Source: Gemmatimonadota bacterium (GTDB taxonomy: Bacteria; ARS69). Taken from it: 64,000 nt of DNA. Position 1 is the stretch's first letter, and each line of letters opens with the position of its first letter. Below are positions 5,881 through 37,539 of the stretch, in pieces. The DNA lies in assembly GCA_030747075.1 (NCBI GenBank), contig JASLLL010000009.1:14148-78147 (forward strand), given 5' to 3'. The notes beneath the pieces were generated by a model. It saw only the letters and a program-made list of their open reading frames with translations. It made no database searches and was not told the origin of the DNA. Made by a program: the position numbers and the translations under genes.

Positions 5881-8544
5881 ATGAACCTCGATCGGATCCT
5901 GCGGGACGAAATCCTCCCCCGTGTGCAGAAGCCCAGCCGATACCTGGGAAACGAACTGAACGCCGCGCGCGCGGCTCCCGAACCGGGGGATGTCCGGATT
6001 GCGCTGGCATTCCCGGACCTCTACGACGTCGGGCTCTCCAATCTCGGCCTTCTCATTCTCTACGGGATCCTGAACCGCCTGCCCGGGGTCTCCGCGGAGC
6101 GCACCTACGCTCCCGCGGCTGACCTCGAGGAGAAGATGCGCGCACGCGGATTGCCGCTCTTCTCATGGGAGTCGCGGACCCCGCTTTCGGATTTCGACGC
6201 CATCGGCTTCACCATCCAGTATGAACTCTCCGCGACGAACATTTTGAACATGCTGGACCTCGCCGGGCTTCCCCTTCGCGCGGCGGATCGTACGGATTCG
6301 CACCCGCTGGTGCTGGCCGGAGGGCCGTGCGTCTGCAACCCGGAACCGTATGCGTACTTCATGGACGCGTTTGTGATCGGCGACGGGGAGGACGCCGTGG
6401 TCGAGCTGGCGCGGTTCCTCCGGGAGACGCGCGGGATGAAGCGGGTCGCGCGTCTGGATGCGCTGGCCGGACTCCCCGGCGTCTATGTCCCCGCGGTTCA
6501 CCCCACCGTGCGCGGGCCACACGGGCAGGTTCTCCCGGATCCATCCGGGCCGACGATTCGAAAGTCCGTCGTGGCCGATCTGGACGCCGCGCCGTATCCC
6601 ACCGACTACATCGTTCCCTACACGCAGCAGGTTCACGATCGCGCGTCGCTGGAGGTGCTGCGCGGTTGCACGCAGGGATGCCGGTTCTGTCAGGCGGGCA
6701 TGACCTATCGCCCCGTGCGAGAGCGCAGTCTCCCGACGCTGGACCGTCTGCTGACAGAGACGGTTCGGAAGACCGGCTACGACGAAATCTCCCTCGCCAG
6801 CCTCTCTACCTGCGACTACGGAAAGGTGAAGCACCTCCTCGAACAGTCCGTGCGGAGGCTCACGCCGCAGGGAGTGGCGGTGGCGCTTCCATCGATTCGA
6901 ACGGATTCCTTCTCGGTGGACCTTTCGGACATGGTGGCCGGGGCGAAGAAGTCCGGCATCACCTTCGCCCCCGAGGCCGCCACTGGGCGTCTGCGTGCAT
7001 TGATCGACAAGTGGATTCCCGACGAGGAGATTCTCGGCACCACCGAAGCGGTCTTCGCGCGCGGCTGGGAACGCGTGAAGCTGTACTTCATGATCGGGCA
7101 TCCCACCGAGACCGACGAGGATGTGGAGGCCATTGCGCGACTCTCGCGCGAAGTCCTCGCGCGGGGGCGGACGGTTCAACCGCGGGCGCAGGTGAATGTG
7201 AGCGTCTCCACCTTCGTGCCGAAGCCGTTCACGCCGTTCCAGTGGGAGCGGCAGATCGACCTGGAGGAAACGCGCCACCGGCAGGAGATTCTCCGGCGCG
7301 GAATGAAGGAGCGCGGGCTGCGGTTTCGTCCGCACGATGCATCGACGAGTTGGCTGGAGGGCATTGTCTCCCGAAACGATCGCCGCGTGGGCGACCTCTT
7401 CGAGCACGCATGGCGGGAGGGGTGCCGCCTCGACGGATGGAGCGAGCATTTCGACTTCGCGGCATGGCGCCGCGCACTGGAGAAATGGGGCGGGTCCCCG
7501 GAGGAGGCGTTGCGCGAGAGGTCCGTGGAGGAGCCGCTGCCGTGGGACCACATCGACATTCTCGTGAAGAAGGAGTTTCTGGCCGGGGAGCTTGAGAAGG
7601 CGAAGAGCGGTGTGCGGGAAGAGGCACTCACCGCGGACTGCCGGAGCGGATGTCACTTGTGCGGCGTGATTGATGAGGAGAAGGAACTCTGCAACCGGAT
7701 GATCCGCACCGCAAAGGCCGGGAAGAAGGAATCCGCCGAGTGGGTGTCGCGGGGTCCGGTCACCGGGCCGTGGACAGAACCGGTCACGGGCACGATCCGG
7801 TTCCGTTTTACGAAGGCTCCCGAGGTGGCGCTTCTGTCGCACCTGGAAGTGCAGACGGCGCTGGGGCGGATGCTGCGCCGCGCGGAGATCCCTGTCGCGT
7901 TCACGCAGGGGTATTCGCCGCATCTTCGTCTGGCGCTCTCCGACGCGCTTCCCGTCGGTATGGCCAGCGACGCGGAGTACGGGGATGTGCGCCTGCGTCG
8001 GTCCATGTCACCGGACCGCTTCGTGGAGCGCATGCAGGCCGCCGCGTCTCCGGGGCTTGGCGTGTCGGCCGCGCGCACGGTGTCCGCCGACGCGCCGTCG
8101 CTCTCCTCCCGCATTGCCGCCGCCCGCTACCGTGTGGGCCTCGGGCGGCTCGGCATCCCGGTCGACGACGCGATGGACAAGGTGGCGGCGTTTCTCGCCC
8201 GGGAAGAGGTGGTGGTCGAGAAGCTCGTCATTCGGAAGCGGCGTGAGAAGATCGTCCGCGTGGACATTCGTCCGTTCACGCGGTCTCTGGTCGCCGGTGA
8301 GTCGGACGGCGAGGCCGTGCTGGATGTCGTGCTGGGCCGCCGGTCCGGGAACCTCGTCCGGCCGAAGGAGATTCTGGCGGCACTTTTCGGGATCGACGGA
8401 GACCGGCTACTCGACGCACGGGTTCACAAGCGCGACTCTCTCGTGGAGTTCGACGGGCGGCTCGTATCCGTCGGGCAGGGGTGGGCTGTGTCGGGCCGAT
8501 ACGACCCCTGGGAGAGGCTGCCGCAGGAAGGGGGCGTGGCGTGA
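5881..8544 (+). CDS. Radical SAM protein, TIGR03960-type B12-binding-like radical SAM fused to a TIGR03936/DUF2344-type C-terminal domain
   Basis: CxxxCxxC in LRGCTQGCRFCQAG with an N-terminal B12-binding-like region. The C-terminal ~250 aa resemble the DUF2344 partner, which is usually encoded adjacently or fused. Family assignment is from memory of this architecture. Confidence 0.7.
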   Translation: MNLDRILRDEILPRVQKPSRYLGNELNAARAAPEPGDVRIALAFPDLYDVGLSNLGLLILYGILNRLPGVSAERTYAPAADLEEKMRARGLPLFSWESRTPLSDFDAIGFTIQYELSATNILNMLDLAGLPLRAADRTDSHPLVLAGGPCVCNPEPYAYFMDAFVIGDGEDAVVELARFLRETRGMKRVARLDALAGLPGVYVPAVHPTVRGPHGQVLPDPSGPTIRKSVVADLDAAPYPTDYIVPYTQQVHDRASLEVLRGCTQGCRFCQAGMTYRPVRERSLPTLDRLLTETVRKTGYDEISLASLSTCDYGKVKHLLEQSVRRLTPQGVAVALPSIRTDSFSVDLSDMVAGAKKSGITFAPEAATGRLRALIDKWIPDEEILGTTEAVFARGWERVKLYFMIGHPTETDEDVEAIARLSREVLARGRTVQPRAQVNVSVSTFVPKPFTPFQWERQIDLEETRHRQEILRRGMKERGLRFRPHDASTSWLEGIVSRNDRRVGDLFEHAWREGCRLDGWSEHFDFAAWRRALEKWGGSPEEALRERSVEEPLPWDHIDILVKKEFLAGELEKAKSGVREEALTADCRSGCHLCGVIDEEKELCNRMIRTAKAGKKESAEWVSRGPVTGPWTEPVTGTIRFRFTKAPEVALLSHLEVQTALGRMLRRAEIPVAFTQGYSPHLRLALSDALPVGMASDAEYGDVRLRRSMSPDRFVERMQAAASPGLGVSAARTVSADAPSLSSRIAAARYRVGLGRLGIPVDDAMDKVAAFLAREEVVVEKLVIRKRREKIVRVDIRPFTRSLVAGESDGEAVLDVVLGRRSGNLVRPKEILAALFGIDGDRLLDARVHKRDSLVEFDGRLVSVGQGWAVSGRYDPWERLPQEGGVA

Positions 8545-18856: not shown

Positions 18857-21087
18857 TGGATGCGGACGGACTTGACGGAGGCGCGTCGTCCTCCGCCCGT
18901 GATGTTCAGGAAGTAGACTCCCGCGGGAAGCAGGGTGCCGTCGTCTGCGCGTCCGTCCCAGGTCGTGGTCGAAGCGCCTTCCCGGAATGAGGGGGGCACG
19001 AGCGTTCGCACGCATCGCCCCGCGATGTCCATGACGCGCACGGTAAGGCGCGTGCCTTCCGTTCCCGAGAGGCACAGAGTCTGTGTCCGGGAAGCGGGCT
19101 GTGGCCGGATGCCGAGTACGGCCCACGCGGCAGGGCCGCCGGTCAGGGCTTCCACCGCCGTGGACGACCCCGGGTCATCTTCCCGCATCGTGTACAATCC
19201 GGGTGCCACGCCCTTCCAGACAGTCCGGGTTCCGGATGGCCAGTTCACCACGACCGAGTCCGCGCTTTCCGATTCTTCGATGCCGAGCATGACGCGAAGC
19301 GGGTTCATGAAGCCGCGCCACGAGTTCGCGAAGACGCGGCGATGCACCTCGTCATCATCGTGGTAGGCGACGACTTTCGCCCCGACAGCGGCGTGGCCGG
19401 AGAGCGTTCCAATCAGATCAAGCCGGATCGAGACTCCCCCGGCGCGGGCATTTCGGTAGTACCGGACCACTCCGTTTGCGCTGTAGGTCTGGGGTCCCGC
19501 TCCCTCGCTCAAGAACAACTCCGGAAGTCCGTCTCCGGTCAGGTCTCCCCAGACCGCGCCATCGGCCAGTCCGGTGCTTCCTCCGGGAAGGCCTTCGCTT
19601 GCGGTCACATCCGTCAGCGTTCCCCGCTGATTGCGGTAGAGGCGGTCGGGCGCGTTCGGTTGCGCCGAGGTGCCCATGTCCACGACATGGAGGTCAAGAT
19701 CGCCGTCCGCGTCATAATCCACCCAGGTGATGTGTCGCGGATTGACCATGGCTGACAGCCCCAGACTGCTGGTGACCTCCTGGAATGTCCCGCCGTCGTT
19801 GCGCCACACCCGAGGGCTCCCCGGGATGAATCCCGAATCTTCCAGATCGACTCCGGTCGCCTGCAGCGTACTTCCGCCAGCGGTGACCCACCCGTCGAAG
19901 GTGTCGAAGTTGATGTCGGGCGTGGAACAGCGGATCTGCCACGGGCCCGACGCAGACTCCCGCCACACCCAGGTTCCGCGCTCCACGCCCGGCTGGAAGT
20001 CCGGCTGGCCGATGAACTCGGGCGTCAGGAGAATGGTCTCTCCATTGGGGGGGATCAGTTCGTCCGGCCCCAGAAAGATGCGATTGAGGTTCTGGTAGCC
20101 GCGCAGCCGGAACTGAGCGTGCAGCGTGTCGGCCGTCGTGGAGACAGTCAGTCCGTCCAGTCCCAGGTCTCCGTATCGTGTATTGAAGAAGTAGGAGAGC
20201 GTATCCCCGATGGTATAGGCGTCAAACACGCCGACCATGCCATCGCAAACGGCCAGATCCAGGTCTCCGTCGTTGTCGTAGTCTCCCCAGTCGGCTCCGG
20301 AGATTGTGGGAATGGAAGGGGTGAACACCTCCGACGCATCGACAAAGACTCCGCCGTCGTTGCGGTAGAGTCTGGTCGGTCGCGGGAACTCCTCTCCGCC
20401 GACCAGGAGATCCGGGTCTCCGTCGTCGTCGTAGTCTCCCCAGATTCCCCCGACGGTGCCGTCGAACTCCTCCAGTCCGCTCCCGTCCGACACATCCACA
20501 AACGAGAACCCTCCGCGATTCCGAAAGAGAGCGTTGCCGTAATTCTCGGACGGGGCGGCTCCAGTCCACAGGTCCGGAAGACCGTCGCCATCGTAGTCGG
20601 CGGCGGACACGGCCCGGGTCCGCGTGGGCGGGGAGTCCGCGCCTCCCGCGTCGGGAACCGGAGTGAAGGCTCCGTCGCCCTCGTTCACATACAGTTCGTT
20701 GGCCTCCGGGCTGCTTCCTCCGCCCCCTCCGTGGGTGTAGAAGATGTCAGGCAGGGGGCTGCCGTCCAGAGGCAGAGCCACGGCGCCATGCCGGTCCATC
20801 GGGCCGACCCAGGGCAGTGGATGCAAGAGGCGGGAGAAGACGCCAGTACCGTCGTTCCAGTAGAGAATGGGGGAGTAGAAGTGGTGTCCGGCGCAGAGAT
20901 CCAGGTCTCCGTCGAGATCGAGGTCCGAAAGGAAAGCTCCCCAGGTCGGCTGCGTCCAGTTCAGCCCGGACGAAACCGTCTCATCGAAAAAGACGGCCCC
21001 GGCCGGGCAGCCGCCGAGGGCGATCCATAGGGCCGCACCGACGGCCAGGAAGTGTGGAATGATTGAATGACGCAACGGATGCCCCAC
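18853..21087 (-). CDS. FG-GAP/VCBS-repeat protein with T9SS (Por) type-A C-terminal sorting domain
   Basis: Multiple D-x-D-x-D-G-D calcium-loop repeats (DYDGDGLPDL, DLDGDLDL..). The C-terminal ~70 aa (..RLTVRVMDIAGRCVRTL..WDGRADDGTLLPAGVYFLNITGGGRRASVKSVRI) match the T9SS CTD pattern. N-terminal signal/lipobox. Confidence 0.8.
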   Translation of the reverse strand: MGHPLRHSIIPHFLAVGAALWIALGGCPAGAVFFDETVSSGLNWTQPTWGAFLSDLDLDGDLDLCAGHHFYSPILYWNDGTGVFSRLLHPLPWVGPMDRHGAVALPLDGSPLPDIFYTHGGGGGSSPEANELYVNEGDGAFTPVPDAGGADSPPTRTRAVSAADYDGDGLPDLWTGAAPSENYGNALFRNRGGFSFVDVSDGSGLEEFDGTVGGIWGDYDDDGDPDLLVGGEEFPRPTRLYRNDGGVFVDASEVFTPSIPTISGADWGDYDNDGDLDLAVCDGMVGVFDAYTIGDTLSYFFNTRYGDLGLDGLTVSTTADTLHAQFRLRGYQNLNRIFLGPDELIPPNGETILLTPEFIGQPDFQPGVERGTWVWRESASGPWQIRCSTPDINFDTFDGWVTAGGSTLQATGVDLEDSGFIPGSPRVWRNDGGTFQEVTSSLGLSAMVNPRHITWVDYDADGDLDLHVVDMGTSAQPNAPDRLYRNQRGTLTDVTASEGLPGGSTGLADGAVWGDLTGDGLPELFLSEGAGPQTYSANGVVRYYRNARAGGVSIRLDLIGTLSGHAAVGAKVVAYHDDDEVHRRVFANSWRGFMNPLRVMLGIEESESADSVVVNWPSGTRTVWKGVAPGLYTMREDDPGSSTAVEALTGGPAAWAVLGIRPQPASRTQTLCLSGTEGTRLTVRVMDIAGRCVRTLVPPSFREGASTTTWDGRADDGTLLPAGVYFLNITGGGRRASVKSVRIH

Positions 21088-21713: not shown

Positions 21714-21974
21714 CTATCTCCATGCCCAGTGTCCGCGTACCCGGATGCGGCACCCGGGGGCGACGCGCTTCCAGTGTCCCGGAACCCACACCCTGTGATG
21801 GCGCGGGGCTCTCGGTCCGGCGACGACCACGACCCGAGCCGGAGCCGGTCGAGGAGTCCGGATGACAAGCCTCCCCCGAACCCGTGCGGATGCGTCAGTC
21901 GGGGCGGCGAGTCCGGCGGAGAGAAGGGCGGCGGTGAGAAGTGCGGGAGCGATGAGTCCGGACAGCGTCTTCAT
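21714..21974 (-). CDS. Small secreted protein (86 aa) with repeated GHW motifs
   Basis: ATG at 21974 with AAGGAG 7 nt upstream. Signal peptide MKTLSGLIAPALLTAALLSAGLAAP. Basic C-terminus ..HRVWVPGHWKRV..RVRGHWAWR. Confidence 0.5.
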   Translation of the reverse strand: MKTLSGLIAPALLTAALLSAGLAAPTDASARVRGRLVIRTPRPAPARVVVVAGPRAPRHHRVWVPGHWKRVAPGCRIRVRGHWAWR

Positions 21975-22210
21975 GAGGGTCTCCTTATGGCCGAATCTCC
22001 GGCCTGTGTGGGTTGCCCGGCGATACCGCAATGCGTGTGCCAATTGCACGCATTGCGGCGTGATCACCCGCAAGTGTCTGTGTCGACACGGGTTCGGTCC
22101 CAGATGGCTGGCCCGTGCCGCCCTCCTTCCTGACGGACCTCTGCGTACATGTTGGACCCCTGCGGCCATGTCCGGCATGATCGACGACGACTGACTCCGG
22201 AGGATCGCCT

Positions 22211-26572: not shown

Positions 26573-28894
26573 CTACTGGATGTATCCGAGTGCGCGGAGT
26601 TCCTCTCGGATTCTCTCGTCGGCGTCGGTCGCGATTCCTTCCGTCGTTGCGCTGTCCCGGGCGCCGTAGCTCTCCACCATGCGCACCCCGTGTTCCTCAG
26701 CCCAGGCTTCTGTGAAGAGATCGGTCAGCACCACGCCCTCCATGTCGGCGGCAGCTGGCGCGCCCAGGAGGTGGAGGATCGTCGGAGTCAGGTCGACCGC
26801 CCGCGCCCCGCGGACCCACCCGCCCTTTCGAAAGGGAGGCCCCGCCGCCAGCAGGAACCCGTCCATGGCGTGATCGCCGGAGTGCCCGCTCGGGACGATC
26901 GCGCTTCCCGCAGGGAGTCGCCCGTTGCCCAGAGAGAGGGCGGCCCCGGCCAGTCCCCGGTGGAATCGGGCCAGAAGGAATGGCCCGTCCTCATCGCGTC
27001 CTGTCGAGAGTCGGCGGAAAACCGCCCCCCCCGCATCGGTGCGTGCCTTGCTCAGCGTTCGCTTTGCCTCTTCCAGCGCCACTTTCCCGTTCGCGGCGGC
27101 CCTGCCCGGGCGCAACCGTCGCACGGGGTCGGTGAAACGGTCTGCGTTCGGATCGAAGACCCGGCTGGCCCGCTCATCCACGCTCCCCGGTTCTCCCGGC
27201 AGCGAAACAGCCAACCCGGCCGCCGCGAGCAGGTGGTTCATGTGGTAGGCGGTGTCGCGTTCGTTGTTTGCGAGGAATCCGTGATCGGACAGGATGACGA
27301 TGCTGGTGCGCGGATCCACCATCGCGATCACCTCGCCCACGAGTTCATCGGCGAAGTCGTAGTACCGGTCGATGACCGGAGCGAGGGCACGGACTTCGTC
27401 GTCGGCCATGGTGCCGTAGAGCGTTTCGGAGAGCCCCCGCCGCCCGCGTTCCGCCATGCGGTACTTCCAGAAGAGGTGCTGCGTATTGTCGGTGCCGCGG
27501 AAGTAGAGTGCGGTCAGGTCCGGTTGTTCTTCGCGAAGGAGAAGCCGCGCGGACTCCAGCGTGAAGAGATCATGGCGCACCACCCGATCGAGCACATCCA
27601 CGGCACGACGGGTCGGCCCCCATTGCTCGCGCCGGAACACCTCCAGCGAATCGCCGACTTGTGTGAACCTCCCGATGCCGCGCCACGGATGGGTGTCCAG
27701 CGTCTGGCGCACCGAATCCACCGCCGCCGTGAGGTGCGCGGGATACACGCGGTCCGACAGGCCGTCGAAGTCCGCCCGGTCGGAGACAATCGTGCCCGCC
27801 ACCTCCTCCGCAGGCCACGACACATACCAGTTCACGAACGCCACCGTGTAGTCCGCCGGCGCGGCGATGTTCCACAGCGCGGGAACTCGTCGCATCCGGC
27901 CTGACACCGGAATGGCCTCACCATCGCGCCGCGTGACAAAGTCCCGAATGCCGTGCGTGGTCGGGAGCATTCCCGTCACGACCGAGGTCCACACCACGGG
28001 CGACTTCGGCGTGCGGATGGAACGCAGCGGGCCGGTCGTTCCGTCGCGCAGGAGTCGCGCGAAGTTCGGCAGGCGCCCTTCGGCGATGCCCTCGTCGAGG
28101 AGGCCTCGCTCGATTCCGTCGATCGCGAGAATCAGGACGCGCTCGTCGCTGCCCGATCGGGCCGCGCTGGCGACGGTCTCCGCGTCCGGGCGGCGAGGTC
28201 CCGGAAGCGAGGTCGTCGCCATTCCCGCGAGAAGAAGGAGCGCCATGGCGGGCAGGCCGAACGCAAGCGCGCGAAGAACCTGCGGGGGGGCCACGCGACT
28301 CACGCGGGCACTCACCCATGCGACGGCAAACGCCCCGCTCGCCGCCGCAAGAACGATCCACAGTCCGGGTGCCGCGGGCAGACCCCGGTGAAGCCAGAGC
28401 CGTCCGAACGCGGCGGCGTCGATGGCAGCCAGGACGCTCGCGATCGCGGCGGCTCGCGCCAATCCCGCCCGGAGCTTCCCGCGAGCGAGAGTCGCCAGCG
28501 CCGCGCCCGCGGCGGCCCCGACCAGCGCATGCATGGCGACATAGGCAGCGGTACCCATGGCGGCGGTATCCAGATGCGTGAGTGTCGGCTCCGAGAGAAG
28601 AGGACGGAGTCTGCGGAATGCGAAGTTGAGCAGGTCCGCCCATACATGGAGGTCGCGGGATCTCTCGGCCGCGGCGAATACGGCGCCGGCACCGATCCCC
28701 GCGAGGAATCCCTCGATCGCTGCACGCGCTCGGTCGATCTCCCGGGCGGGGAGGCGCGCGTCGCTCAACGGCGCGTCTCGGGATGGGTCGATGCGCGCGT
28801 GTCCGCTCCAGTGCGACCCGCACCCTGAGATTCGCCCGGTTCGGTCAGAAGCAGGCGATGAATCTCCTCCACATCGGGCCGTGGAAGGCCGCAA
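26573..28894 (-). CDS. Membrane-anchored type I phosphodiesterase / nucleotide pyrophosphatase (AlkP superfamily) protein, paralog of 35533..37539
   Basis: N-terminal multi-TM region followed by an AlkP-core motif (LILAIDGI..TPKSPVVWTSVVTGMLPTTHGI). The start is uncertain; the annotated 5' end overlaps the next gene by ~130 nt. Confidence 0.7.
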   Translation of the reverse strand: MRPSTARCGGDSSPASDRTGRISGCGSHWSGHARIDPSRDAPLSDARLPAREIDRARAAIEGFLAGIGAGAVFAAAERSRDLHVWADLLNFAFRRLRPLLSEPTLTHLDTAAMGTAAYVAMHALVGAAAGAALATLARGKLRAGLARAAAIASVLAAIDAAAFGRLWLHRGLPAAPGLWIVLAAASGAFAVAWVSARVSRVAPPQVLRALAFGLPAMALLLLAGMATTSLPGPRRPDAETVASAARSGSDERVLILAIDGIERGLLDEGIAEGRLPNFARLLRDGTTGPLRSIRTPKSPVVWTSVVTGMLPTTHGIRDFVTRRDGEAIPVSGRMRRVPALWNIAAPADYTVAFVNWYVSWPAEEVAGTIVSDRADFDGLSDRVYPAHLTAAVDSVRQTLDTHPWRGIGRFTQVGDSLEVFRREQWGPTRRAVDVLDRVVRHDLFTLESARLLLREEQPDLTALYFRGTDNTQHLFWKYRMAERGRRGLSETLYGTMADDEVRALAPVIDRYYDFADELVGEVIAMVDPRTSIVILSDHGFLANNERDTAYHMNHLLAAAGLAVSLPGEPGSVDERASRVFDPNADRFTDPVRRLRPGRAAANGKVALEEAKRTLSKARTDAGGAVFRRLSTGRDEDGPFLLARFHRGLAGAALSLGNGRLPAGSAIVPSGHSGDHAMDGFLLAAGPPFRKGGWVRGARAVDLTPTILHLLGAPAAADMEGVVLTDLFTEAWAEEHGVRMVESYGARDSATTEGIATDADERIREELRALGYIQ

Positions 28895-30521: not shown

Positions 30522-30700
30522 GATTCCTCCGAAGGAAATATCCGGGCCTCGGCGCGGGGGATTTCCCCTCCGGGGCCGTAGGGGAAAGATGGTAACTTCG
30601 GGACAGTGACGACCCAAGGGATTTCCACGGACGCCGCCGGGTTCTTCCGTCTCGGGCGGGGAGACTGGCGTGTGGATGCGTTGCGGGAAGGGAGCTTGAG

Positions 30701-33700
30701 ATGGCCGGTACCGATCCTCTGGAGATCCGGGCACTCTCTGATGTTCTCCACGCTTCCGGCGAAACCTATCTGAAAGACGGGGATTATACGCGCGCGGCGG
30801 AGTTCTTCCGCAAGAGCCTGGACATTCGTGAGCGGATCGGCGAACCGCGCCTGACCGCGGATACGCTTGCGGACCTCGGGCGCGTTCTCATGCTGCTCGG
30901 AGAGATGGAAGAGGCGGCGGAGCGCGTCCGGAGCGCGCTGAAGCATCGGGAGGACGCCGGGGACTCCGCCGGGGTGGCCGACTGTCACGATATCCTGGGG
31001 AACATCGCCCGGGGGCAGGGGCGACCCGACGAAGCGGAGTCGCACTACGGCCGGGCGCTTGCGTTCAAGCAGGAAGCCGGGGACGAGCGCGGGATGGCCA
31101 CGACCCTCGCGCTGTACGGGATTCTCCACAACGAACGCGGGGATTATCCGGCGGCTGAAGAGCGCTATCAGGCGGCGCTCGCCATCTTCGATCGTGTCGG
31201 GGATCGGGAACAGGTGGCGTCTCTCACCAACAACCTCGGCAATCTCTACCTGCGCAAGGGAGATCCTGGCGCCGCAGCCACGGAACTGGAGAAGGCGCGG
31301 GACCTGTTCGAGGAACTCGGCGACCCGCGCGGCGTCGGCAAGTGCCTGAACAACCTTGCGGCCATCTACCGCGCCTTGGGCAAGGACAGCCCGGCGGCGG
31401 ATTCCTACCGGAAGGCGCTGGGCCTTTTCGAGGAGATCGGCGACAAGCGCGGCGCTGCGATCTCGGCGAACAATCTCGCCGTGATCGAGCAGGACTTCGG
31501 GCGATATCGGGAGGCGTCCGAGTACCACGAGCGGAGTCTGGAACTGAAGCGGGAGATGGGGGATCGCACGGGTGAAGCCGTGTCGCTGGGGAATCTCGCG
31601 GACATTGCCTTCTTCCGTGGGGAGTGGGAGCGGGCGGACCGCCTGCACCGGCAGGCCCTGGCGATTCAGGAAGAGGTAGGCAATCGAACGGGGGAGGCCC
31701 GGCTCAGGAACCGTCGCGCCCGATTGCGACTGGTGCGCGGGGGGCGCGAGGCCGCCGCCCGGGAAGCGGCGACGGCGCGCCGACTGGGGCGCGAAGTTCA
31801 GTCGCGCGAGATCCAGGCGGAGGCGCTGCTCATCGAGGTCCGCCTTGCATCGGCAGCGGGCGACACCGGCGGGGCTCGCCGTCTTCTGGAGGAGGCCGAG
31901 GAACTCGGCCGGGCCATGCGCAGCCGGGAGACGGAGGCCGCCATCCGCGTGGCGCGCGGGGAGGTTCTGGCGTCGGAGGGAGAGGAAGAGGCGGCTTCCA
32001 CCATCTTCGACGAAGCCTCCCGGGCCTACAAACGGCTGCGGCGCTCCTTCGATCTGGCGGGGGTGGAGCTGGCGCGCGGCGTCTCGCTGGCGCGGTTCGG
32101 GCGGGGGGATCGGTGCATCGAACCGTTCGCCCGGGCCGAGGAGATCCTGGACGGCATGGGTTCCTCGGCGCACATGCTCGCGCCGTTGAGGCAGGCGCTG
32201 GAGATTCTCGCGAAGGAGCACCCCGGCGAGGGGGTGGAACTGGCGGAGATGGGGACCCGACTCGCCCATCGCCTGGGGGACTCGGATGCTGCCCGGGACT
32301 TTCAGGAGGCGCTCCAGACGCGTGAGAGTGGCGGCGGCGAGAACCCGGCGGAGCATCGGCTGGCGGTTCTCTCGGAGGTGACCCGACACCTTCAGGAGAC
32401 CCGGCAGGCCGAAGGCGTCGCGGGCTGGATTCTGGAGCGTGTGGTAGAGGAGGTCCGTGCGGATCGCGGCCTGCTGCTGTTGCAGGAACTGGCGGGCGAC
32501 GGGTTTCAGGCGGCGGCGGTCCTTCGGCTGGAGGATCCCGCGTTGACGGATGCGGTCCGCGCTGCGGAGAGGGCCGGGGAGTCGGGGGAGACGATCCGGG
32601 ACTTCCAGGGCGGAGGGAGCGCGGGGAGCAGATCGAGACTTGTCGTGCCCTTCGGGGTGCGGGGGGAGGAGGGCGTGGCGGGCGTCATGCATCTGGAGGC
32701 GTCGGTCGGTGCGCGCGGGTTCTCTCTGGCGGATGCGCGCTTTGTGAGCAGTTGTCTGGCCGCCTACGCGCTCTTTCTGCGGGGCGGATCCCCCCGGGAG
32801 TCCCGGGATCGCGTGGCGGTGGGGTCGGGAAACACCCCGGCGGCCTTCTCGACGATCGTGGGAGATTCGAAGCGCATCCGCGAAGTATTCCACGCGGCCA
32901 CGCGGGTCGCGGCCGGGAACGCCACCGTGCTCATTCTCGGAGAGAGCGGGACCGGGAAGGAGCTTCTGGCGCGGGGGATTCACGACTCCTCTCCGCGCAC
33001 GGCGGAGCCCTTTGTGGCGGTCAACTGCCCGTCGATCCCGCGGGACCTGCTGGAGAGCGAGCTTTTCGGGTACGAGAAGGGCGCATTCACCGGCGCCGAC
33101 TCCCCCAAGGCAGGCAGGCTGGAACTGGCCGACGGAGGGACGCTCTTCCTGGACGAGGTGGCGGACCTGTCGCCGCCCGCCCAGGCGAAAATCCTGCGCG
33201 TGCTTCAGGAGCGCACCTTTGAGCGACTCGGCGGGCTGGAGACGAAGGCGGTGGATGTTCGCATCCTCGCGGCCACCTCCACCGACCTGGCCGAAGCTGT
33301 CCGAGATCGGCGCTTCCGGGAAGATCTCTACTACCGGATCAATGTGGTTCCGCTCGTACTCCCCGCACTCCGCGATCGAAAGGAGGACATCCCCGCGCTG
33401 GTGGACCACTTCCTCGCGAAGTACGCGCGGCCCGAGCGGCCCGTCCGCTTCGTCACGCCGGAGGCACTCCGTCGACTGACCGTCTACCCGTGGCCCGGGA
33501 ACATTCGGGAGTTGGAGAACGCCATTCAGTACGCGGTGAGCCTCATGGACGGAGAGACCCTGGCACCGGGAGATCTCCCCCGGACCGTTCGGTCCCACGG
33601 CGGCGGCGATCTCCGGGGGATCGGGAGCCTCCGTTCGGAACTCGAACGCGTCGAGAAGGAGATCATTCTGGAGATTCTGGAAGAGACCGGATGGAACCGG

Positions 33701-33850
33701 AGCGAGGCCGCCCGCCGTCTGGGAACTCACGAGAGCAAGATCCGTCAACGCATCCGCAAGTATGGCCTGTCTTCCCCGAAGAAGAGCGAAGAATCCGCTC
33801 GCGGAACACGCTCAGACGACCAAGGATTCGTCGATTCTGACGAACACTGA
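30701..33850 (+). CDS. Sigma-54-dependent transcriptional activator with N-terminal TPR repeats and GAF-like sensor domain
   Basis: About 10 TPR-like repeats (..LGNLYLRKGD.., ..LNNLAAIYRALGK..) and a central GAF-like region. AAA+ sigma-54 interaction domain (VLILGESGTGKELLARGIH; ESELFGYEKGAFTGA; GAFTGA). C-terminal Fis-type HTH. Confidence 0.85.
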   Translation: MAGTDPLEIRALSDVLHASGETYLKDGDYTRAAEFFRKSLDIRERIGEPRLTADTLADLGRVLMLLGEMEEAAERVRSALKHREDAGDSAGVADCHDILGNIARGQGRPDEAESHYGRALAFKQEAGDERGMATTLALYGILHNERGDYPAAEERYQAALAIFDRVGDREQVASLTNNLGNLYLRKGDPGAAATELEKARDLFEELGDPRGVGKCLNNLAAIYRALGKDSPAADSYRKALGLFEEIGDKRGAAISANNLAVIEQDFGRYREASEYHERSLELKREMGDRTGEAVSLGNLADIAFFRGEWERADRLHRQALAIQEEVGNRTGEARLRNRRARLRLVRGGREAAAREAATARRLGREVQSREIQAEALLIEVRLASAAGDTGGARRLLEEAEELGRAMRSRETEAAIRVARGEVLASEGEEEAASTIFDEASRAYKRLRRSFDLAGVELARGVSLARFGRGDRCIEPFARAEEILDGMGSSAHMLAPLRQALEILAKEHPGEGVELAEMGTRLAHRLGDSDAARDFQEALQTRESGGGENPAEHRLAVLSEVTRHLQETRQAEGVAGWILERVVEEVRADRGLLLLQELAGDGFQAAAVLRLEDPALTDAVRAAERAGESGETIRDFQGGGSAGSRSRLVVPFGVRGEEGVAGVMHLEASVGARGFSLADARFVSSCLAAYALFLRGGSPRESRDRVAVGSGNTPAAFSTIVGDSKRIREVFHAATRVAAGNATVLILGESGTGKELLARGIHDSSPRTAEPFVAVNCPSIPRDLLESELFGYEKGAFTGADSPKAGRLELADGGTLFLDEVADLSPPAQAKILRVLQERTFERLGGLETKAVDVRILAATSTDLAEAVRDRRFREDLYYRINVVPLVLPALRDRKEDIPALVDHFLAKYARPERPVRFVTPEALRRLTVYPWPGNIRELENAIQYAVSLMDGETLAPGDLPRTVRSHGGGDLRGIGSLRSELERVEKEIILEILEETGWNRSEAARRLGTHESKIRQRIRKYGLSSPKKSEESARGTRSDDQGFVDSDEH

Positions 33851-33863
33851 TCCTGTGCGAAAT

Positions 33864-33989
33864 CAAGGACTTACGGCCCGATTTCGACAAACTCGCGGAT
33901 TTCGACGAACTCCGTCCGATCGGCGAGGTTTCCTGCGGGAATTGTCGCAGAATTGAGGCGCCGGAACAGACGCCGGGCCAAGGACTTAC
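33864..33989 (+). repeat. Intergenic direct repeats: 2x CAAGGACTTAC (33864-33874, 33979-33989) and tandem 2x GATTTCGAC[A/G]AACTC (33880-33894, 33898-33912)
   Basis: Read directly in the sequence. They lie between the activator gene and the sigma-54 promoter, roughly -160 to -40 from the -24 element. Confidence 0.5.
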
Positions 33990-34025
33990 AGAGACACTCG
34001 CGAAAATCGCCGAACCTGCGAAAGT

Positions 34026-34041
34026 TGGCATCCGGATTGCA
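34026..34041 (+). promoter_or_regulatory. Sigma-54 (RpoN) -24/-12 promoter TGGCAT-N5-TTGCA
   Basis: TGGCATCCGGATTGCA matches the TGGCAC-N5-TTGCW consensus with exact GG/GC spacing. It lies 55-70 nt upstream of the next ORF start and immediately downstream of a sigma-54 activator gene. Confidence 0.55.
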
Positions 34042-34096
34042 GTAGTCCCTCCCCGTACGCCGGGAACGAGTCCCGGCGGTGGAGAGGAAAGCCGAG

Positions 34097-34405
34097 ATGC
34101 AAACTCCAGGAAACACACCCCGAGAGCGAATCACACAGGCTCCGGAGAGCCGAGGAAATCATGGGCGGCACCCATTCCTCGCTACGCTCTCCGTTCTGGC
34201 CCTGGTGATCGCTCTGGGGATCCTGGGGGGTTCGAGCCGGGTCACTCCGGTCGCGGCGGAAGCGAATGCCCCGTCCCGAACTCTTCGCGGAGACACCTCC
34301 ATTCTCCACCGCCAGGACGCTGTTTCCGGCGGAGACCGGTATGAGCGACCCGCATGCCCCGTTCCGTCTCGCGTCGCGGGGAGCGTGCGGGTTCGTATTC
34401 CGTAA
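34097..34405 (+). CDS. Small hypothetical membrane protein (about 103 aa)
   Basis: ATG at 34097 with GGAGAGG upstream (alternative GTG at 34079). One predicted TM helix (FLATLSVLALVIALGILGG). It stops 1 codon before the next gene region. Small-ORF call, moderate support only. Confidence 0.35.
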   Translation: MQTPGNTPRERITQAPESRGNHGRHPFLATLSVLALVIALGILGGSSRVTPVAAEANAPSRTLRGDTSILHRQDAVSGGDRYERPACPVPSRVAGSVRVRIP

Positions 34406-34495
34406 GTGTTCGAGAGGAGAGCAATCCGCCTCTCAAATGCGGTAGAATGGTGGCAGTGTTACCCCCCTTCGATGCGGGACAGGAGGACTTTCGAA

Positions 34496-35506
34496 ATGCA
34501 ACTCAAAATGCGCTCACACTTTGCGTCGGCGACTCGGATCGCGTCGCTTCTTCTGCTTGCGGGTTCTCTTGCGCTCCCGGCAGAGGCCGCGGTGATGATC
34601 AATGAGTTCGAACGCGCGTCGGGTTCGGACTATGTGGAGCTCTACAACGACGGGACGGTCTCGGTGGATCTCTCCGGTTGGACACTGGAGAGCAAGCTGG
34701 GCGTGGTCATTCCTCTGTCCGGTGTCATTTCCGGAGGCGGATACACCACGCACAGCACATCCAATGTCGTGCTCGACGGGGGGGAGATCGAACTTTACGA
34801 CGGCAGTTACCTCAAGCGTGACGAAGTCGCTTTCGGATCCGCCGGGGGGGCGCCCGCCGTACCGCCGATCGGTTCATACTCCTGCGGTCGCGCCCCGAAC
34901 GGTACAGACACCGGGAACGACGCCGCCGACTGGAACCTGGCGACCAGCAACTCACTCGGTTTTGCAAATACGCACCCGGTCGCGAATCTGAACGGCTGGG
35001 TGGCCATGAACGAAGTGGGCTTCCAGAGGTTCCGCTCCTCCGCGGGGTGTGAACTCGGAGCGACCGTGGTGGAACTGTTCAACTCCACCGGAACCTATGT
35101 GGATCTCTACGGGTGGTGGGTGACCAACGGCCGCAAGGTGACCGTTCTCTTCGGGATGATTGCCCCGAACGGATTTGCCGTATTCAATGACCTTGCCACG
35201 GGGTTCTGCTTTGACGAGACCGAAGTGATCTATCTCTTCGGACCCACCGGTCGACGCTTCGATCAGTTCGGTACGAAAGGCGCCCGGCTCCCCGACGAGA
35301 GCTTTACCTTCCAGCGTGTTCCGGACGGCACGGGCGGACAGGGTCCCTTCGACGGGTTCGACTATGTATCGAGCGGCGGGTCGAGGGTGCTGTTCATGCT
35401 CCCGCAAACCTGGAACGACACGAACGATCAGGCCACGCCGATGGCGGCGGACGACCCCGCGATCGAGGCCGGAAGCTGGGGGAGGGTCAAGGCCCTCTAC
35501 CGCTAG
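34496..35506 (+). CDS. Secreted protein with two lamin-tail domains (LTD) and C-terminal 'WGxVKxLYR' tail
   Basis: ATG at 34496 with AGGAGG 9 nt upstream. Signal peptide ..IASLLLLAGSLALPAEAAV. LTD signatures (INEFE..YVELYNDG..VDLSGWTL and MNEVGF..VVELFN..VDLYGWWV). Ends ..GSWGRVKALYR-stop. Confidence 0.75.
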   Translation: MQLKMRSHFASATRIASLLLLAGSLALPAEAAVMINEFERASGSDYVELYNDGTVSVDLSGWTLESKLGVVIPLSGVISGGGYTTHSTSNVVLDGGEIELYDGSYLKRDEVAFGSAGGAPAVPPIGSYSCGRAPNGTDTGNDAADWNLATSNSLGFANTHPVANLNGWVAMNEVGFQRFRSSAGCELGATVVELFNSTGTYVDLYGWWVTNGRKVTVLFGMIAPNGFAVFNDLATGFCFDETEVIYLFGPTGRRFDQFGTKGARLPDESFTFQRVPDGTGGQGPFDGFDYVSSGGSRVLFMLPQTWNDTNDQATPMAADDPAIEAGSWGRVKALYR

Positions 35507-35532
35507 GTTGGTGCGGCTGCGGGCGGGCTTCT

Positions 35533-37539
35533 CTAAGGTGTGGCGGGTTCGTAGGTTGCGACGACGCCCGGGATTCTGTGGCGCAGCGCTTCTTCCAGCG
35601 ACTCCTGAATCACATCGCCGGCGAGGTCCGCAGCGAGATCCATCTCATTCAGGGCCAGCATGGTGGGCATGAGGTCGAGCAGGTCCGCGTTCTCGAAGTG
35701 GGTGCCCGGAGCGACGCGTCTTCCGCTGAGCACGAGCGCGCCCGTTTCCACCGTGCGGGAACTCTCCTGGAACTCCATGGAGCGAACGAGGTCATCCAGC
35801 GGACACCGGCCGCCCTGGAACAGGACGACATCTTCGCTTCCCGGCACGACATCCGGGTGGATCGTGACGACCATATTTCCCCACTCATCCAGACGCGTGA
35901 CGAACGGCTGAATGTCCGCACGCGCCAGTCGAGCCGTCTGGAAAAGGCGGCGCACGCCGTCCAGGTCCGGTTCGTGGCCATCCCTCATCCGCACATAAGT
36001 GCGCAGCCCGAGGTTGGTTGCTTCCACCGCGTTCTTGAGGCGCATCTCCCGCAAGAGCGGCTCCGGCCGGAGCGTCAGGTTCCGGTGGGAGTCCCCGGGG
36101 ACCGCTTCGGCGCCATGATCCGACACGACGACGACCAGCTCGTCCTCCGCCGCATCGGCGAGGATCTTGCCGATGAACGCATCCGCGAGGCGGTAGGCGT
36201 CGTGTACGCTGCCGCCGTAGCGCTCGATGTCCTCCCGGGAGACATCTCCGAAGGAGTCGGGTTCGTGGTACTTCCAGAAGTGCGACTGGGCCACATGGAT
36301 GATGTTCGTGTGATAGGCGGCGAAGTCCGGTTCAAACTTCCGGCGAAGCTCCACGAAGAAGTCCGAGTTCAGCTTCGCCCGGAGCTTTCGCTTCGTGAAG
36401 ATCTGCGCCGAGTTCAGCGTTCGCCCGTGGAGGGGGTCGGAGAGAATTTCACCCGCGGCTTCGGAGAGCGTACCGAGCCGCACCCCGTAGCGGATCCCGA
36501 GAAATGCGTACCGGCAGTACCTTCCCCAGGTGCGTCTTCGGCGGGTCTTCTCGTTCATGGCGAGTTCGCGGATGAAGCCCAGCCGGGGCGGCCAGGTGTC
36601 CGGGCCGGGGTCGGATACGGAGGGAACCACGAAGCCGTCCGTGGCGGTCGGCGGCCATGTGACAGGCCATCCGAAGATGCCCACCGACCATGCGCGTTCG
36701 GCGAAGATGTCCCAGATCCGCCGCGTCTGTACATCCTGAGTCGTGGATGCGGCCACGCCGAGGATCCCGTGCTCCCTGGCGGGCCTGCCGGTCGCGACGG
36801 AGGTCCAGACGGCGGAGGTGGTGTAGGGCTGAACGGAGTGGACATCTCCCCAGGCGCCTCCCCGGCGGAGCACTTCGAGGTTCGGCATCTCCCCTCGCTC
36901 GATCAGTTCCTCCGCGACGGTCCACGACATTCCCGGGAAGGCCAGTATCAGCGCCCGCGAACCCGGTGCCAGCCCACGGCCGGAGGGGGTTGCTCCCGCG
37001 AGAATCGCCACCACGGGCAGCGCCGCAAGAAGGGGCCAGACCCAGATTCTGCGGTGAGCGCAGACATAGCGCGCGGTGATGGAGGCTAGCCATCCGAGCC
37101 CCATGGCGATCAGGGGTCCGACGCCGTAACGCAGCATCTCCGACGAATGGAAAAGGCTGAGGAGCGGCGGAAGGAAGGGGAGCGTCGCGGCGAAGACTGC
37201 GATCCCGGCCACCGACGCCCAGAGGAGTTCATACGCGCGAGGGACATCTTCGCTGGAGCCGATTCCGGCGAGCCAGCGGAGGATCCGGCCGAGCACAAGC
37301 CCCAACACCCCCCCCCCGAGGACGGGGAGCACCAGGTAGAAGGTCACGCCCAGGCCCGCCCGGTCCACAAAGCGTGGATTCAGTGCGAACGCTACCGTCG
37401 CGACGATGGAGATCCAGAAGAGGGAAACGGCCACACCGGTCCGCGGCCCGGAGGAGAGAAGTCCTCGCGGGTCGGGAGGCGTGTGCCGTCTGGGGGTCGA
37501 TGGCCTCGTGGTCATACTTCCCGAATCGGATGGATCCAC
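35533..37539 (-). CDS. Membrane-anchored type I phosphodiesterase / nucleotide pyrophosphatase (AlkP superfamily) protein, paralog of 26573..28894
   Basis: N-terminal multi-TM region followed by the AlkP core (LILAFPGMSW..TTSAVWTSVATGRPAREHGI). Same architecture as the other paralog. Confidence 0.7.
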   Translation of the reverse strand: MDPSDSGSMTTRPSTPRRHTPPDPRGLLSSGPRTGVAVSLFWISIVATVAFALNPRFVDRAGLGVTFYLVLPVLGGGVLGLVLGRILRWLAGIGSSEDVPRAYELLWASVAGIAVFAATLPFLPPLLSLFHSSEMLRYGVGPLIAMGLGWLASITARYVCAHRRIWVWPLLAALPVVAILAGATPSGRGLAPGSRALILAFPGMSWTVAEELIERGEMPNLEVLRRGGAWGDVHSVQPYTTSAVWTSVATGRPAREHGILGVAASTTQDVQTRRIWDIFAERAWSVGIFGWPVTWPPTATDGFVVPSVSDPGPDTWPPRLGFIRELAMNEKTRRRRTWGRYCRYAFLGIRYGVRLGTLSEAAGEILSDPLHGRTLNSAQIFTKRKLRAKLNSDFFVELRRKFEPDFAAYHTNIIHVAQSHFWKYHEPDSFGDVSREDIERYGGSVHDAYRLADAFIGKILADAAEDELVVVVSDHGAEAVPGDSHRNLTLRPEPLLREMRLKNAVEATNLGLRTYVRMRDGHEPDLDGVRRLFQTARLARADIQPFVTRLDEWGNMVVTIHPDVVPGSEDVVLFQGGRCPLDDLVRSMEFQESSRTVETGALVLSGRRVAPGTHFENADLLDLMPTMLALNEMDLAADLAGDVIQESLEEALRHRIPGVVATYEPATP

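What the first reader, a model, noticed from the sequence alone, without database searches (positions are those of the whole stretch)
33851..34096. Activator-proximal regulatory region: perfect sigma-54 promoter preceded by two sets of direct repeats
Immediately downstream of the TPR-GAF-sigma54 activator gene lies TGGCAT-N5-TTGCA (34026-34041) with canonical GG/GC spacing. Upstream of it are a tandem pair GATTTCGAC[A/G]AACTC (18 nt register) and a pair of CAAGGACTTAC motifs 115 nt apart.

This layout, repeats at about -40 to -160 with a -24/-12 element, is what an enhancer-binding-protein target looks like. The regulated genes would be the small membrane ORF and the LTD-tail protein.
Basis: seen in the sequence. 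Interest (0 to 1): 0.6.

Follow-up and report, generated by a model that had tools for sequence, protein, structure and literature searches.

The report
Conserved sigma-54 promoter with upstream enhancer
The 250 bases after this activator gene hold a real sigma-54 promoter and its upstream activator-binding sites, conserved in position across eight related uncultured Gemmatimonadota-like genomes; it is a sound but ordinary example of a well-known kind of bacterial switch.

Summary

**Promoter.** TGGCATCCGGATTGCA (34026-34041) is the only exact -24/-12 match in 64 kb. An equivalent element sits 55-63 nt before the same small ORF in all 8 orthologous loci I could read.

**Activator sites.** With the start site predicted at 34052, three 18-bp dyads (YTCGNCG-N4-CGNCGAR) lie at fixed positions:
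- -216, inside the last codons of the activator gene

**Possible bend sites.** The two CAAGGACTTAC copies fall on conserved CAA-N4-TT blocks at about -183 and -69. These resemble IHF bending sites, but weakly.

**Protein evidence.** The adjacent TPR/GAF-like activator has an intact GAFTGA loop and an invariant helix-turn-helix.

**Likely target.** The promoter drives a small exported protein. The LTD gene behind it also carries its own conserved TA(G/C)AAT -10-like box.

**Untested.** rpoN and IHF genes could not be checked.

**Verdict.** A new member of a known kind, of modest interest.

The parts
30701..33850 (+). Activator gene (1049 aa): TPR array, divergent GAF-like region, sigma-54 AAA+ domain with GAFTGA, AAA lid, Fis-type HTH
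   Evidence: Pfam. GAFTGA and ESELFGY motifs found. GAF_3 hit only in the L081 ortholog. Orthologs are 58-63% identical with an invariant HTH, WNRSEAARRLGTxESKIRQR. Scores fall below every NCBIfam equivalog cutoff.
33827..33844 (.). Site S0: dyad TTCGTCGATTCTGACGAA centred at -216, inside the last codons of the activator gene
   Evidence: A dyad at -216 occurs in window, L081, L082, L084, L086 and L090, and at -218 in L087. The arms change together (TTCGTC/GACGAA against TTCGGC/GCCGAA) while the encoded amino acids differ.
33861..33874 (+). Exact match to the E. coli IHF core WATCAANNNNTTR.
   Evidence: Only exact match to that pattern in the 64 kb, against 0.19 expected. The block CAAnnACTTC is conserved at about -188 to -177 in the orthologs.
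33883..33909 (.). Site S1: three TCGNCGA-like cores (33884, 33893, 33902) at 9-bp phasing, forming overlapping dyads centred at -160 and -151.
   Evidence: Cores lie at -165, -156 and -147 in window; L081 shows -165 and -156, and L082 -156 and -147, at ≤1 mismatch. Dyads lie at -151 in every in-register locus, and also at -160 in all of those except L084. Repeat family D1 groups it with S0 and S2.
33976..33989 (+). Keeps only CAA-N4-TTR of the IHF core.
   Evidence: CAA..a.TTG is conserved at -73 to -64, often after an A-rich tract. L081 has AACAAAAAATCAATTACTTG, an exact IHF core. In L083 the copy is inverted, at -82.
33997..34014 (.). Site S2: promoter-proximal dyad CTCGCGAAAATCGCCGAA centred at -46. 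Degenerate here, with 2 mismatches.
   Evidence: A dyad sits at exactly -46 in every locus. It is a perfect CTCGTCG-N4-CGACGAG in L082, L086, L087 and L090. The S1 to S2 core spacing is 105 bp in the four loci measured (window, L081-L083).
34026..34041 (+). Sigma-54 promoter TGGCATCCGGATTGCA: GG at 34027-28, GC at 34039-40. Predicted start near 34052.
   Evidence: Unique exact match in the window. Present at the same place in all 8 loci, with consensus tTGGCAynCCGgTTGC. No sigma-70-like promoter in 33500-35700.
34058..34087 (+). Leader hairpin CGCCGGGA-ACGAG-TCCCGGCG, followed by ribosome-binding site GGAGAGG (34081-34087)
   Evidence: Inverted repeat I6. Folds at -22 kcal/mol, z = -1.8. CCGGG..CCCGG plus GGAGAGG is conserved in the orthologs, with little covariation.
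34097..34405 (+). Small ORF (102 aa): Arg-rich N-terminus, one hydrophobic segment, conserved C-terminal ERPACPVPSRVAG. First gene behind the promoter.
   Evidence: Alignment A2. Eleven homologs, all in this clade, with no Pfam or NCBIfam family.
34443..34448 (+). TAGAAT, a -10-like hexamer between the small ORF and the LTD gene
   Evidence: TAGAAT or TACAAT occurs in all 8 loci. Where I measured it, it lies 52-65 nt before the LTD start codon. No -35 element recognised.
34508..35506 (+). LTD (lamin tail domain) protein gene with a signal peptide. Second gene downstream.
   Evidence: Pfam LTD, E = 4.9e-15. Start chosen by alignment with the orthologs. Same gene order in every locus that extends past the small ORF; L082 is cut about 300 nt into this gene.

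Best explanation
This is the control region of a sigma-54-dependent operon. Its first gene is a small exported or membrane protein, and the LTD gene lies downstream.

RNA polymerase carrying sigma-54 would bind TGGCAT-N5-TTGCA and wait as a closed complex. Transcription would start near 34052 only when the adjacent TPR/GAF-like activator hydrolyses ATP and contacts sigma-54 through its GAFTGA loop.

The activator's Fis-type HTH is inferred to bind, as dimers, three 18-bp dyads (YTCGNCG-N4-CGNCGAR) centred at -216, -151/-160 and -46. Three dimers would supply one hexamer.

Two conserved CAA-N4-TT blocks at about -183 and -69 are inferred to be protein-induced or intrinsic bends that bring the distal sites to the promoter. 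The -46 site may add to activation or limit it.

Shown here: the presence, statistics and positional conservation of every element, and the activator's domain content. Inferred: who binds the dyads, the bends, the start site, and the signal sensed by the TPR/GAF part.
For: - **Promoter uniqueness.** It is the only exact match in the window, against 0.05 expected.
- **Promoter conservation.** TGG[CT]-N7-TTGC lies 55-63 nt before the small-ORF ATG in all 8 distinct loci, whose activators are about 60% identical.
- **Preserved register.** In six of the seven ungapped loci the register holds from -245 to -10; L087 is 2 nt off upstream of about -100. Conserved blocks are separated by near-random sequence, at 41% ungapped identity or less between the window and its orthologs.
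- **Dyad positions.** Dyads sit at -216, -151 and -46 in every in-register locus, with a second overlapping dyad at -160 in all of those but L084. Of 27 sigma-54-like sites in 809 kb of unrelated activator loci, only 3 had two or more dyads upstream, and none at these positions.
- **Spacing.** S1 to S2 core spacing is 105 bp in the four loci measured.
- **Symmetry at S0.** The arms change together while the encoded amino acids differ.
- **Activator.** It has Sigma54_activat, AAA_lid_14, HTH_8 and GAFTGA. Its HTH is invariant among orthologs, matching an invariant DNA motif.
- **No competing signals.** No sigma-70-type promoter, no plus-strand terminator between the activator stop codon and the promoter, and no Rfam family.
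- **Second candidate.** Another good -24/-12 match lies in an intergenic region of the same window.
- **Sigma-54 in the phylum.** The one Gemmatimonadetes genome surveyed in PMC3372290, Table 1, has RpoN.
Against: - rpoN was not found in the 64-kb window, and the rest of the genome cannot be read here.
- Binding of this particular activator to the dyads is inferred only from adjacency and co-conservation.
- The 7-bp core TCGNCGA is common background in this GC-rich coding DNA. The N4 pattern gave 18 matches against 18.4 expected; the N2 pattern gave 26 against 15.5.
- The window's own S2 is degenerate, with 2 mismatches.
- A site centred at -46 is unusually close to the promoter for an activating site.
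- The IHF reading is weak. Only the window's first copy, both L083 copies and the second L081 copy match the E. coli core exactly. Across orthologs only CAA-N4-TT is conserved. No HU/IHF gene is in the window.
- The start site is predicted, not measured.
Confidence: 0.78

Rival explanations
1. The -24/-12 promoter is real, but the dyads are operators for some other dimeric regulator, such as a repressor. The adjacent activator would then act from other sites or from solution.
For: Nothing here shows who binds the dyads. The -46 site lies where a repressor or a limiting site would sit. By my recollection, some activators work without DNA binding.
Against: The activator keeps a complete and invariant HTH_8. 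The dyads at -151 and -216 are at classical enhancer distance. Gene, dyads and promoter stay together in all loci. No other regulator gene is conserved in the neighbourhood.
Confidence: 0.1
2. The palindromes act as RNA hairpins in the 3' untranslated region of the activator transcript, for stability or termination. They would not be protein-binding DNA.
For: Several sites could form 6-8 bp stems. The arms of S0 change together, which is also what an RNA stem would show. No terminator separates the activator gene from the region.
Against: Their distance to the -24/-12 element is fixed to the base pair across genomes, which an RNA element would not need. The window's S1 and S2 keep the cores but pair poorly. 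There is no T-run and no Rfam match.
Confidence: 0.05
3. The promoter match and the repeats are chance or compositional background in a GC-rich genome.
For: The short core TCGNCGA and the looser sigma-54 pattern (3 found against 1.46 expected with one mismatch allowed) are not enriched window-wide.
Against: The exact promoter match is unique. The repeats are rare in shuffles. Every element recurs at the same position in 8 orthologous loci within otherwise unalignable DNA.
Confidence: 0.02

Closest known systems
NtrC at glnAp2 in E. coli (sigma-54 promoter with several NtrC dimer sites). Cited from established knowledge, not tested here.
   Same: A -24/-12 promoter. Several dyad sites for a Fis-HTH AAA+ activator upstream, so that bound dimers assemble into the active oligomer. 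Extra sites close to the promoter, which at glnAp2 limit output.
   Different: The half-site sequence is different (YTCGNCG-N4-CGNCGAR). The activator is not a response regulator but has a TPR plus GAF-like sensing part. One site lies inside the activator's own coding sequence. The closest site is at -46.
NifA at nifH, and XylR at Pu (enhancer, IHF bend, sigma-54 promoter). Cited from established knowledge.
   Same: An enhancer at about -130 to -200. An IHF-type bend centred near -60 to -70. A -24/-12 promoter. NifA also has a GAF sensing domain.
   Different: IHF binding is only a sequence resemblance here, and a second candidate bend lies between S0 and S1. The activator scores far below the NifA cutoff (357 bits against 529).
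PspF and pspA (activator gene next to its sigma-54 target, which encodes a small membrane-associated partner). Cited from established knowledge.
   Same: The activator is encoded next to its target promoter. The first product is a small envelope-associated protein that could feed back on the activator.
   Different: The genes are in tandem, not divergent. No sequence similarity to PspA was detected. Any feedback is pure speculation.

Membership tests
Sigma-54 (-24/-12) promoter | GG and GC doublets with the canonical spacing, inside TGGCAC-N5-TTGCW | tested here: met
   TGGCATCCGGATTGCA at 34026-34041. Unique exact match, against 0.05 expected.
Sigma-54 (-24/-12) promoter | Lies upstream of a gene, in a non-coding stretch, at a plausible leader distance, and is conserved in orthologs | tested here: met
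   57 nt from the GC doublet to the ATG. The same element is present in 8 loci.
Sigma-54 (-24/-12) promoter | Sigma-54 (rpoN) is encoded in the genome | not testable with these tools
Indirect support only: a GAFTGA activator, a second -24/-12 candidate, and RpoN in the one Gemmatimonadetes genome surveyed in PMC3372290.
Sigma-54 (-24/-12) promoter | Transcription start about 12 nt after the GC doublet, dependent on rpoN and an activator | not testable with these tools
   Needs 5' end mapping and genetics.
Bacterial enhancer-binding protein (NtrC/NifA class) | AAA+ sigma-54 interaction domain with a GAFTGA loop | tested here: met
   PF00158, E = 4e-68. The sequence ESELFGYEKGAFTGA is present.
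Bacterial enhancer-binding protein (NtrC/NifA class) | C-terminal Fis-type HTH for binding the enhancer | tested here: met
   PF02954, E = 2.9e-11. Invariant among orthologs.
Bacterial enhancer-binding protein (NtrC/NifA class) | Membership of a named, characterised subfamily (NifA, NtrC, PspF and so on) | tested here: not met
   All NCBIfam equivalogs score below cutoff and match the AAA+/HTH part only.
Enhancer (upstream activating sequence) of a sigma-54 promoter | Dyad-symmetric sites about 80-200 bp upstream, usually more than one, conserved with the promoter | tested here: met
   Dyads at -216, -151/-160 and -46 in all in-register loci. S1 to S2 core spacing is 105 bp in the four loci measured.
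Enhancer (upstream activating sequence) of a sigma-54 promoter | Bound by the cognate activator | not testable with these tools
   Needs a gel-shift or footprint experiment.
IHF binding site | Match to WATCAANNNNTTR, often with an A/T-rich tract on the 5' side | tested here: inconclusive
   Exact for the window's copy 1, L081 copy 2 and both L083 copies. The window's copy 2 keeps only CAA-N4-TTA. Across loci only CAA-N4-TT is conserved.
IHF binding site | Lies between enhancer and promoter | tested here: met
   Copy 2 is centred near -69 or -70, between S1 (-151) and the promoter. Copy 1 lies between S0 and S1.
IHF binding site | An IHF or HU protein is encoded and binds the site | not testable with these tools
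   No HU/IHF signature in the window. The whole genome is not available.

The most novel reading that the evidence does not exclude
A rigid three-site enhancer, with one dimer site in the activator's own last codons, one at -151/-160 and one at -46. Two bends alternate with the sites, and the stop codon to start site distance is identical (202 bp) in three genomes about 60% identical in protein. This could pre-assemble exactly one hexamer of an uncharacterised TPR/GAF-type activator on wrapped DNA. The small exported protein it induces could feed back on the TPR sensor, in the manner of PspA and PspF.
Probability: 0.2. Interest if true: 0.45.

Novelty: new member of a known kind. Interest (0 to 1): 0.3.

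Why it matters
It gives a clean, testable regulatory map for an uncharacterised TPR/GAF-type sigma-54 activator in an uncultured, poorly studied lineage labelled Gemmatimonadota. The map covers the promoter, three activator sites, candidate bends, the leader and the target genes.

It also supplies a candidate binding motif for searching the rest of the regulon. It fits the published view that sigma-54 controls cell-exterior functions (PMC3162934).

It does not change what is known about sigma-54 control.

Tried and rejected
- **Genome search with the whole activator.** It returned 80 loci that match only the AAA+ core. These are unrelated activators. I used them later only as a control.
- **Two metagenome searches.** One used the small-ORF alignment and one the TPR/GAF-region alignment. 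Neither gave a confirmed hit.
- **Rfam at a permissive threshold on 33500-34800.** No match.
- **Sigma-70 promoter and terminator scan.** No promoter. Only weak terminator-like hits, none between the activator gene and the promoter on the plus strand.
- **Window-wide enrichment of the core dyad.** None for TCGNCG-N4-CGNCGA (18 found against 18.4 expected) and only mild for the N2 version (26 against 15.5). The motif alone is uninformative; its position carries the signal.
- **Six-frame motif searches.** No RpoN box and no HU/IHF signature in the window.
- **Covariation in the leader hairpin.** Too invariant to test; one covarying pair at best.
- **Autoregulation.** The region upstream of the activator gene has no -24/-12 element and no dyads.
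- **Pfam GAF on the window protein.** Nothing at E up to 10. Only the L081 ortholog hits.

Full report
**1. The observation**

- The activator ORF (30701-33850) ends with TGA at 33848-33850.
- CAAGGACTTAC is at 33864-33874 and 33979-33989.
- GATTTCGACAAACTC is at 33880-33894 and GATTTCGACGAACTC at 33898-33912.
- TGGCATCCGGATTGCA is at 34026-34041.

Each element exceeds chance.
- The exact pattern TGGCAY-N5-TTGCW occurs once in the 64 kb, against 0.05 expected.
- The 11-mer has no third copy even with one mismatch allowed.
- An exact repeat of 11 nt or more arose in 12 of 1000 shuffles of the 246-nt region. A 15-mer pair with up to 1 mismatch arose in 1 of 300.

**2. The genes around it**

The upstream ORF carries many TPR repeats, then Sigma54_activat, AAA_lid_14 and HTH_8. 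It has an intact ESELFGYEKGAFTGA motif.

Pfam finds no GAF domain in the window protein. The same region of the L081 ortholog does hit GAF_3 above cutoff, so 'GAF' is a fair label for a divergent domain. No NCBIfam equivalog reaches its cutoff, so the activator is uncharacterised.

Downstream lie two genes on the same strand.
- A 102-aa ORF starts at ATG 34097, preceded by GGAGAGG. It has an Arg-rich N-terminus, one hydrophobic segment and a conserved C-terminal ERPACPVPSRVAG.
- A signal-peptide LTD protein is encoded at 34508-35506.

The window's activator is 100% identical to a protein annotated as from a MAG labelled Gemmatimonadetes bacterium.

**3. Related loci**

A first genome-wide scan with the whole activator brought only AAA+ paralogs. 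Both metagenome scans found nothing.

Protein searches did find orthologs. Four activator orthologs are 58-63% identical, and eleven small-ORF homologs turned up. Fetching their contigs gave seven further distinct loci with DNA: L081, L082, L083, L084 (same as L085), L086, L087 (same as L088 and L089) and L090.

Gene order is the same wherever the contig extends far enough: M42 peptidase (-), activator (+), small ORF (+), LTD (+), phosphodiesterase (-), S49 peptidase (-). The partial upstream ORFs of L086 and L087 are the same activator.

**4. What is conserved**

Every locus has TGG[CT]-N7-TTGC 55-63 nt before the small-ORF ATG. I set the start site 12 nt after the C of the GC doublet, which is 34052 in the window.

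On that scale, six of seven loci (window, L081, L082, L084, L086, L090) align without a single gap from -245 to -10; L087 is shifted by 2 nt upstream of about -100. In three loci (window, L081, L082) the stop codon sits at exactly -202. Ungapped identity between the window and its orthologs outside the blocks is 41% or less, so the blocks are footprints.

| Block | Position | Window coordinates | Notes |
|---|---|---|---|
| S0 dyad | centre -216 | 33827-33844 | Inside the activator's last codons |
| Promoter | -27 to -9 | 34026-34041 | Consensus tTGGCAynCCGgTTGC |
| Leader hairpin and GGAGAGG | downstream of the start | 34058-34087 | |

An independent repeat finder groups S0, both halves of S1 and S2 into one 25-nt family.

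A scan with YTCGNCG-N4-CGNCGAR puts dyads at exactly -216, -151 and -46 in every in-register locus, and at -218, -153 and -46 in L087. A second, overlapping dyad at -160 is found in all of these except L084. As a control I used 27 sigma-54-like sites in 809 kb of unrelated activator loci. Only 3 had two or more dyads upstream, and none at these positions.

The S1 to S2 core spacing is 105 bp in the four loci where I measured core positions.

At S0 the two arms change together (TTCGTC...GACGAA in the window, TTCGGC...GCCGAA in L081 and L082) while the encoded residues differ. This points to selection on DNA symmetry rather than on the protein tail.

**5. Caveats on the motifs**

The 7-bp core alone is common in GC-rich coding DNA and is not enriched across the window.

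The window's S2 is degenerate, with 2 mismatches.

The IHF reading rests on the E. coli consensus. The window's first copy (AATCAAGGACTTA) is the only exact match in 64 kb. L081's second copy and both L083 copies are also exact. Across loci, though, only CAA-N4-TT is kept. No HU/IHF gene and no rpoN are in the window.

RpoN is reported for the one Gemmatimonadetes genome surveyed in PMC3372290, Table 1.

**6. Mechanism**

The most likely mechanism is a classical sigma-54 switch.
- Sigma-54 holoenzyme sits on the -24/-12 element.
- Dimers of the adjacent activator bind S0, S1 and S2 through the invariant HTH.
- The bound dimers assemble into a hexamer and remodel the closed complex.
- The CAA-N4-TT blocks, at about -183 between S0 and S1 and at about -69 between S1 and the promoter, would provide bends.
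- The -46 site is unusually close to the promoter. It may add to activation or limit it, as the promoter-proximal NtrC sites do at glnAp2 (established knowledge).

The signal sensed by the TPR/GAF part is unknown.

Shown: the elements, their statistics, their conservation and the protein domains. Inferred: who binds what, the bends and the start site.

**7. Which genes are regulated**

The small ORF is the direct target. The LTD gene follows 45-100 nt later with no convincing terminator between them.

A TA(G/C)AAT hexamer is conserved in all 8 loci. In the four loci where I measured it, it lies 52-65 nt before the LTD start codon. The LTD gene therefore probably has a separate basal promoter as well as read-through from the sigma-54 promoter.

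Both products carry export signals. This fits the published link between sigma-54 and the cell exterior (PMC3162934, abstract seen).

**8. Rivals**
- A different regulator binds the dyads: 0.10.
- The palindromes are RNA hairpins in the activator's 3' untranslated region: 0.05. The base-pair-exact distance to the promoter and the poor pairing of the window's S1 and S2 argue against it.
- Chance: 0.02, refuted by conservation.

**9. Verdict**

The region is a well-formed but ordinary sigma-54 promoter and enhancer belonging to an uncharacterised activator family in an uncultured lineage. I rate it a new member of a known kind, with interest 0.3.

Noticed in passing
window 22027-22042 (- strand), with context 21714-22090: A second good sigma-54-like element, TGGCACACGCATTGCG, lies in an intergenic stretch. 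It is embedded in a 12-bp inverted repeat (CCGCAATGCGTG / CACGCATTGCGG). It sits about 54 nt before an 86-aa secreted Arg/His/Trp-rich protein (MKTLSGL...HWAWR). It has no TCGNCGA dyad array upstream, so it probably answers to a different activator.
   Followed up: partly
window 34443-34448; L081 9735-9740; L082 9689-9694; L083 9719-9724; TACAAT in L084, L086, L087 and L090: TA(G/C)AAT is invariant in all 8 loci between the small ORF and the LTD gene. It is probably a -10 element of a separate promoter. In L081 and L082 its TAG is also the small ORF's stop codon. No -35 element was recognised.
   Followed up: partly
window about 30560-30600; L081, L082 and L083 about 5900-5960: Upstream of the activator gene, GATGGTAAC(G/T)T is invariant in four loci. 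In L081 and L082 it is preceded by a palindrome, (CC)CCGGATTCGnTTCCGGGGG. This may be the activator's own promoter and operator. There is no -24/-12 element there.
   Followed up: no
window 34058-34078, and the same place in all orthologs: A GC-rich hairpin (CCGGG-loop-CCCGG) in the predicted leader ends 2-3 nt before the ribosome-binding site. It is conserved in sequence with little covariation. It could stabilise the transcript or gate translation.
   Followed up: partly
L083 6001-9146: The activator gene in this locus is frameshifted within the AAA+ domain. The called product is 944 aa and out of frame from about residue 740. Its -24 element reads TGGCCC, yet the dyads and gene order are kept. 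This is either a long-read assembly error or a decaying copy.
   Followed up: no
window 33850-34052; L081 9159-9361; L082 9090-9292: The distance from the activator's stop codon to the predicted start site is exactly 202 bp in three genomes whose intergenic DNA is only 41-53% identical. Length is tightly constrained here.
   Followed up: yes
window 26573-28894 (-) and 35533-37539 (-): Two paralogous type I phosphodiesterase / nucleotide pyrophosphatase genes bracket the locus. One is convergent with the LTD gene in every ortholog. LTD domains are often found with extracellular nucleases, and there is a weak ExeM N-terminal hit. Together these hint at extracellular nucleotide or DNA scavenging.
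   Followed up: no
window 19193-19208 (- strand): TGGCACCCGGATTGTA is a one-mismatch sigma-54-like match inside a large coding region for a secreted repeat protein. It is most likely chance.
   Followed up: partly
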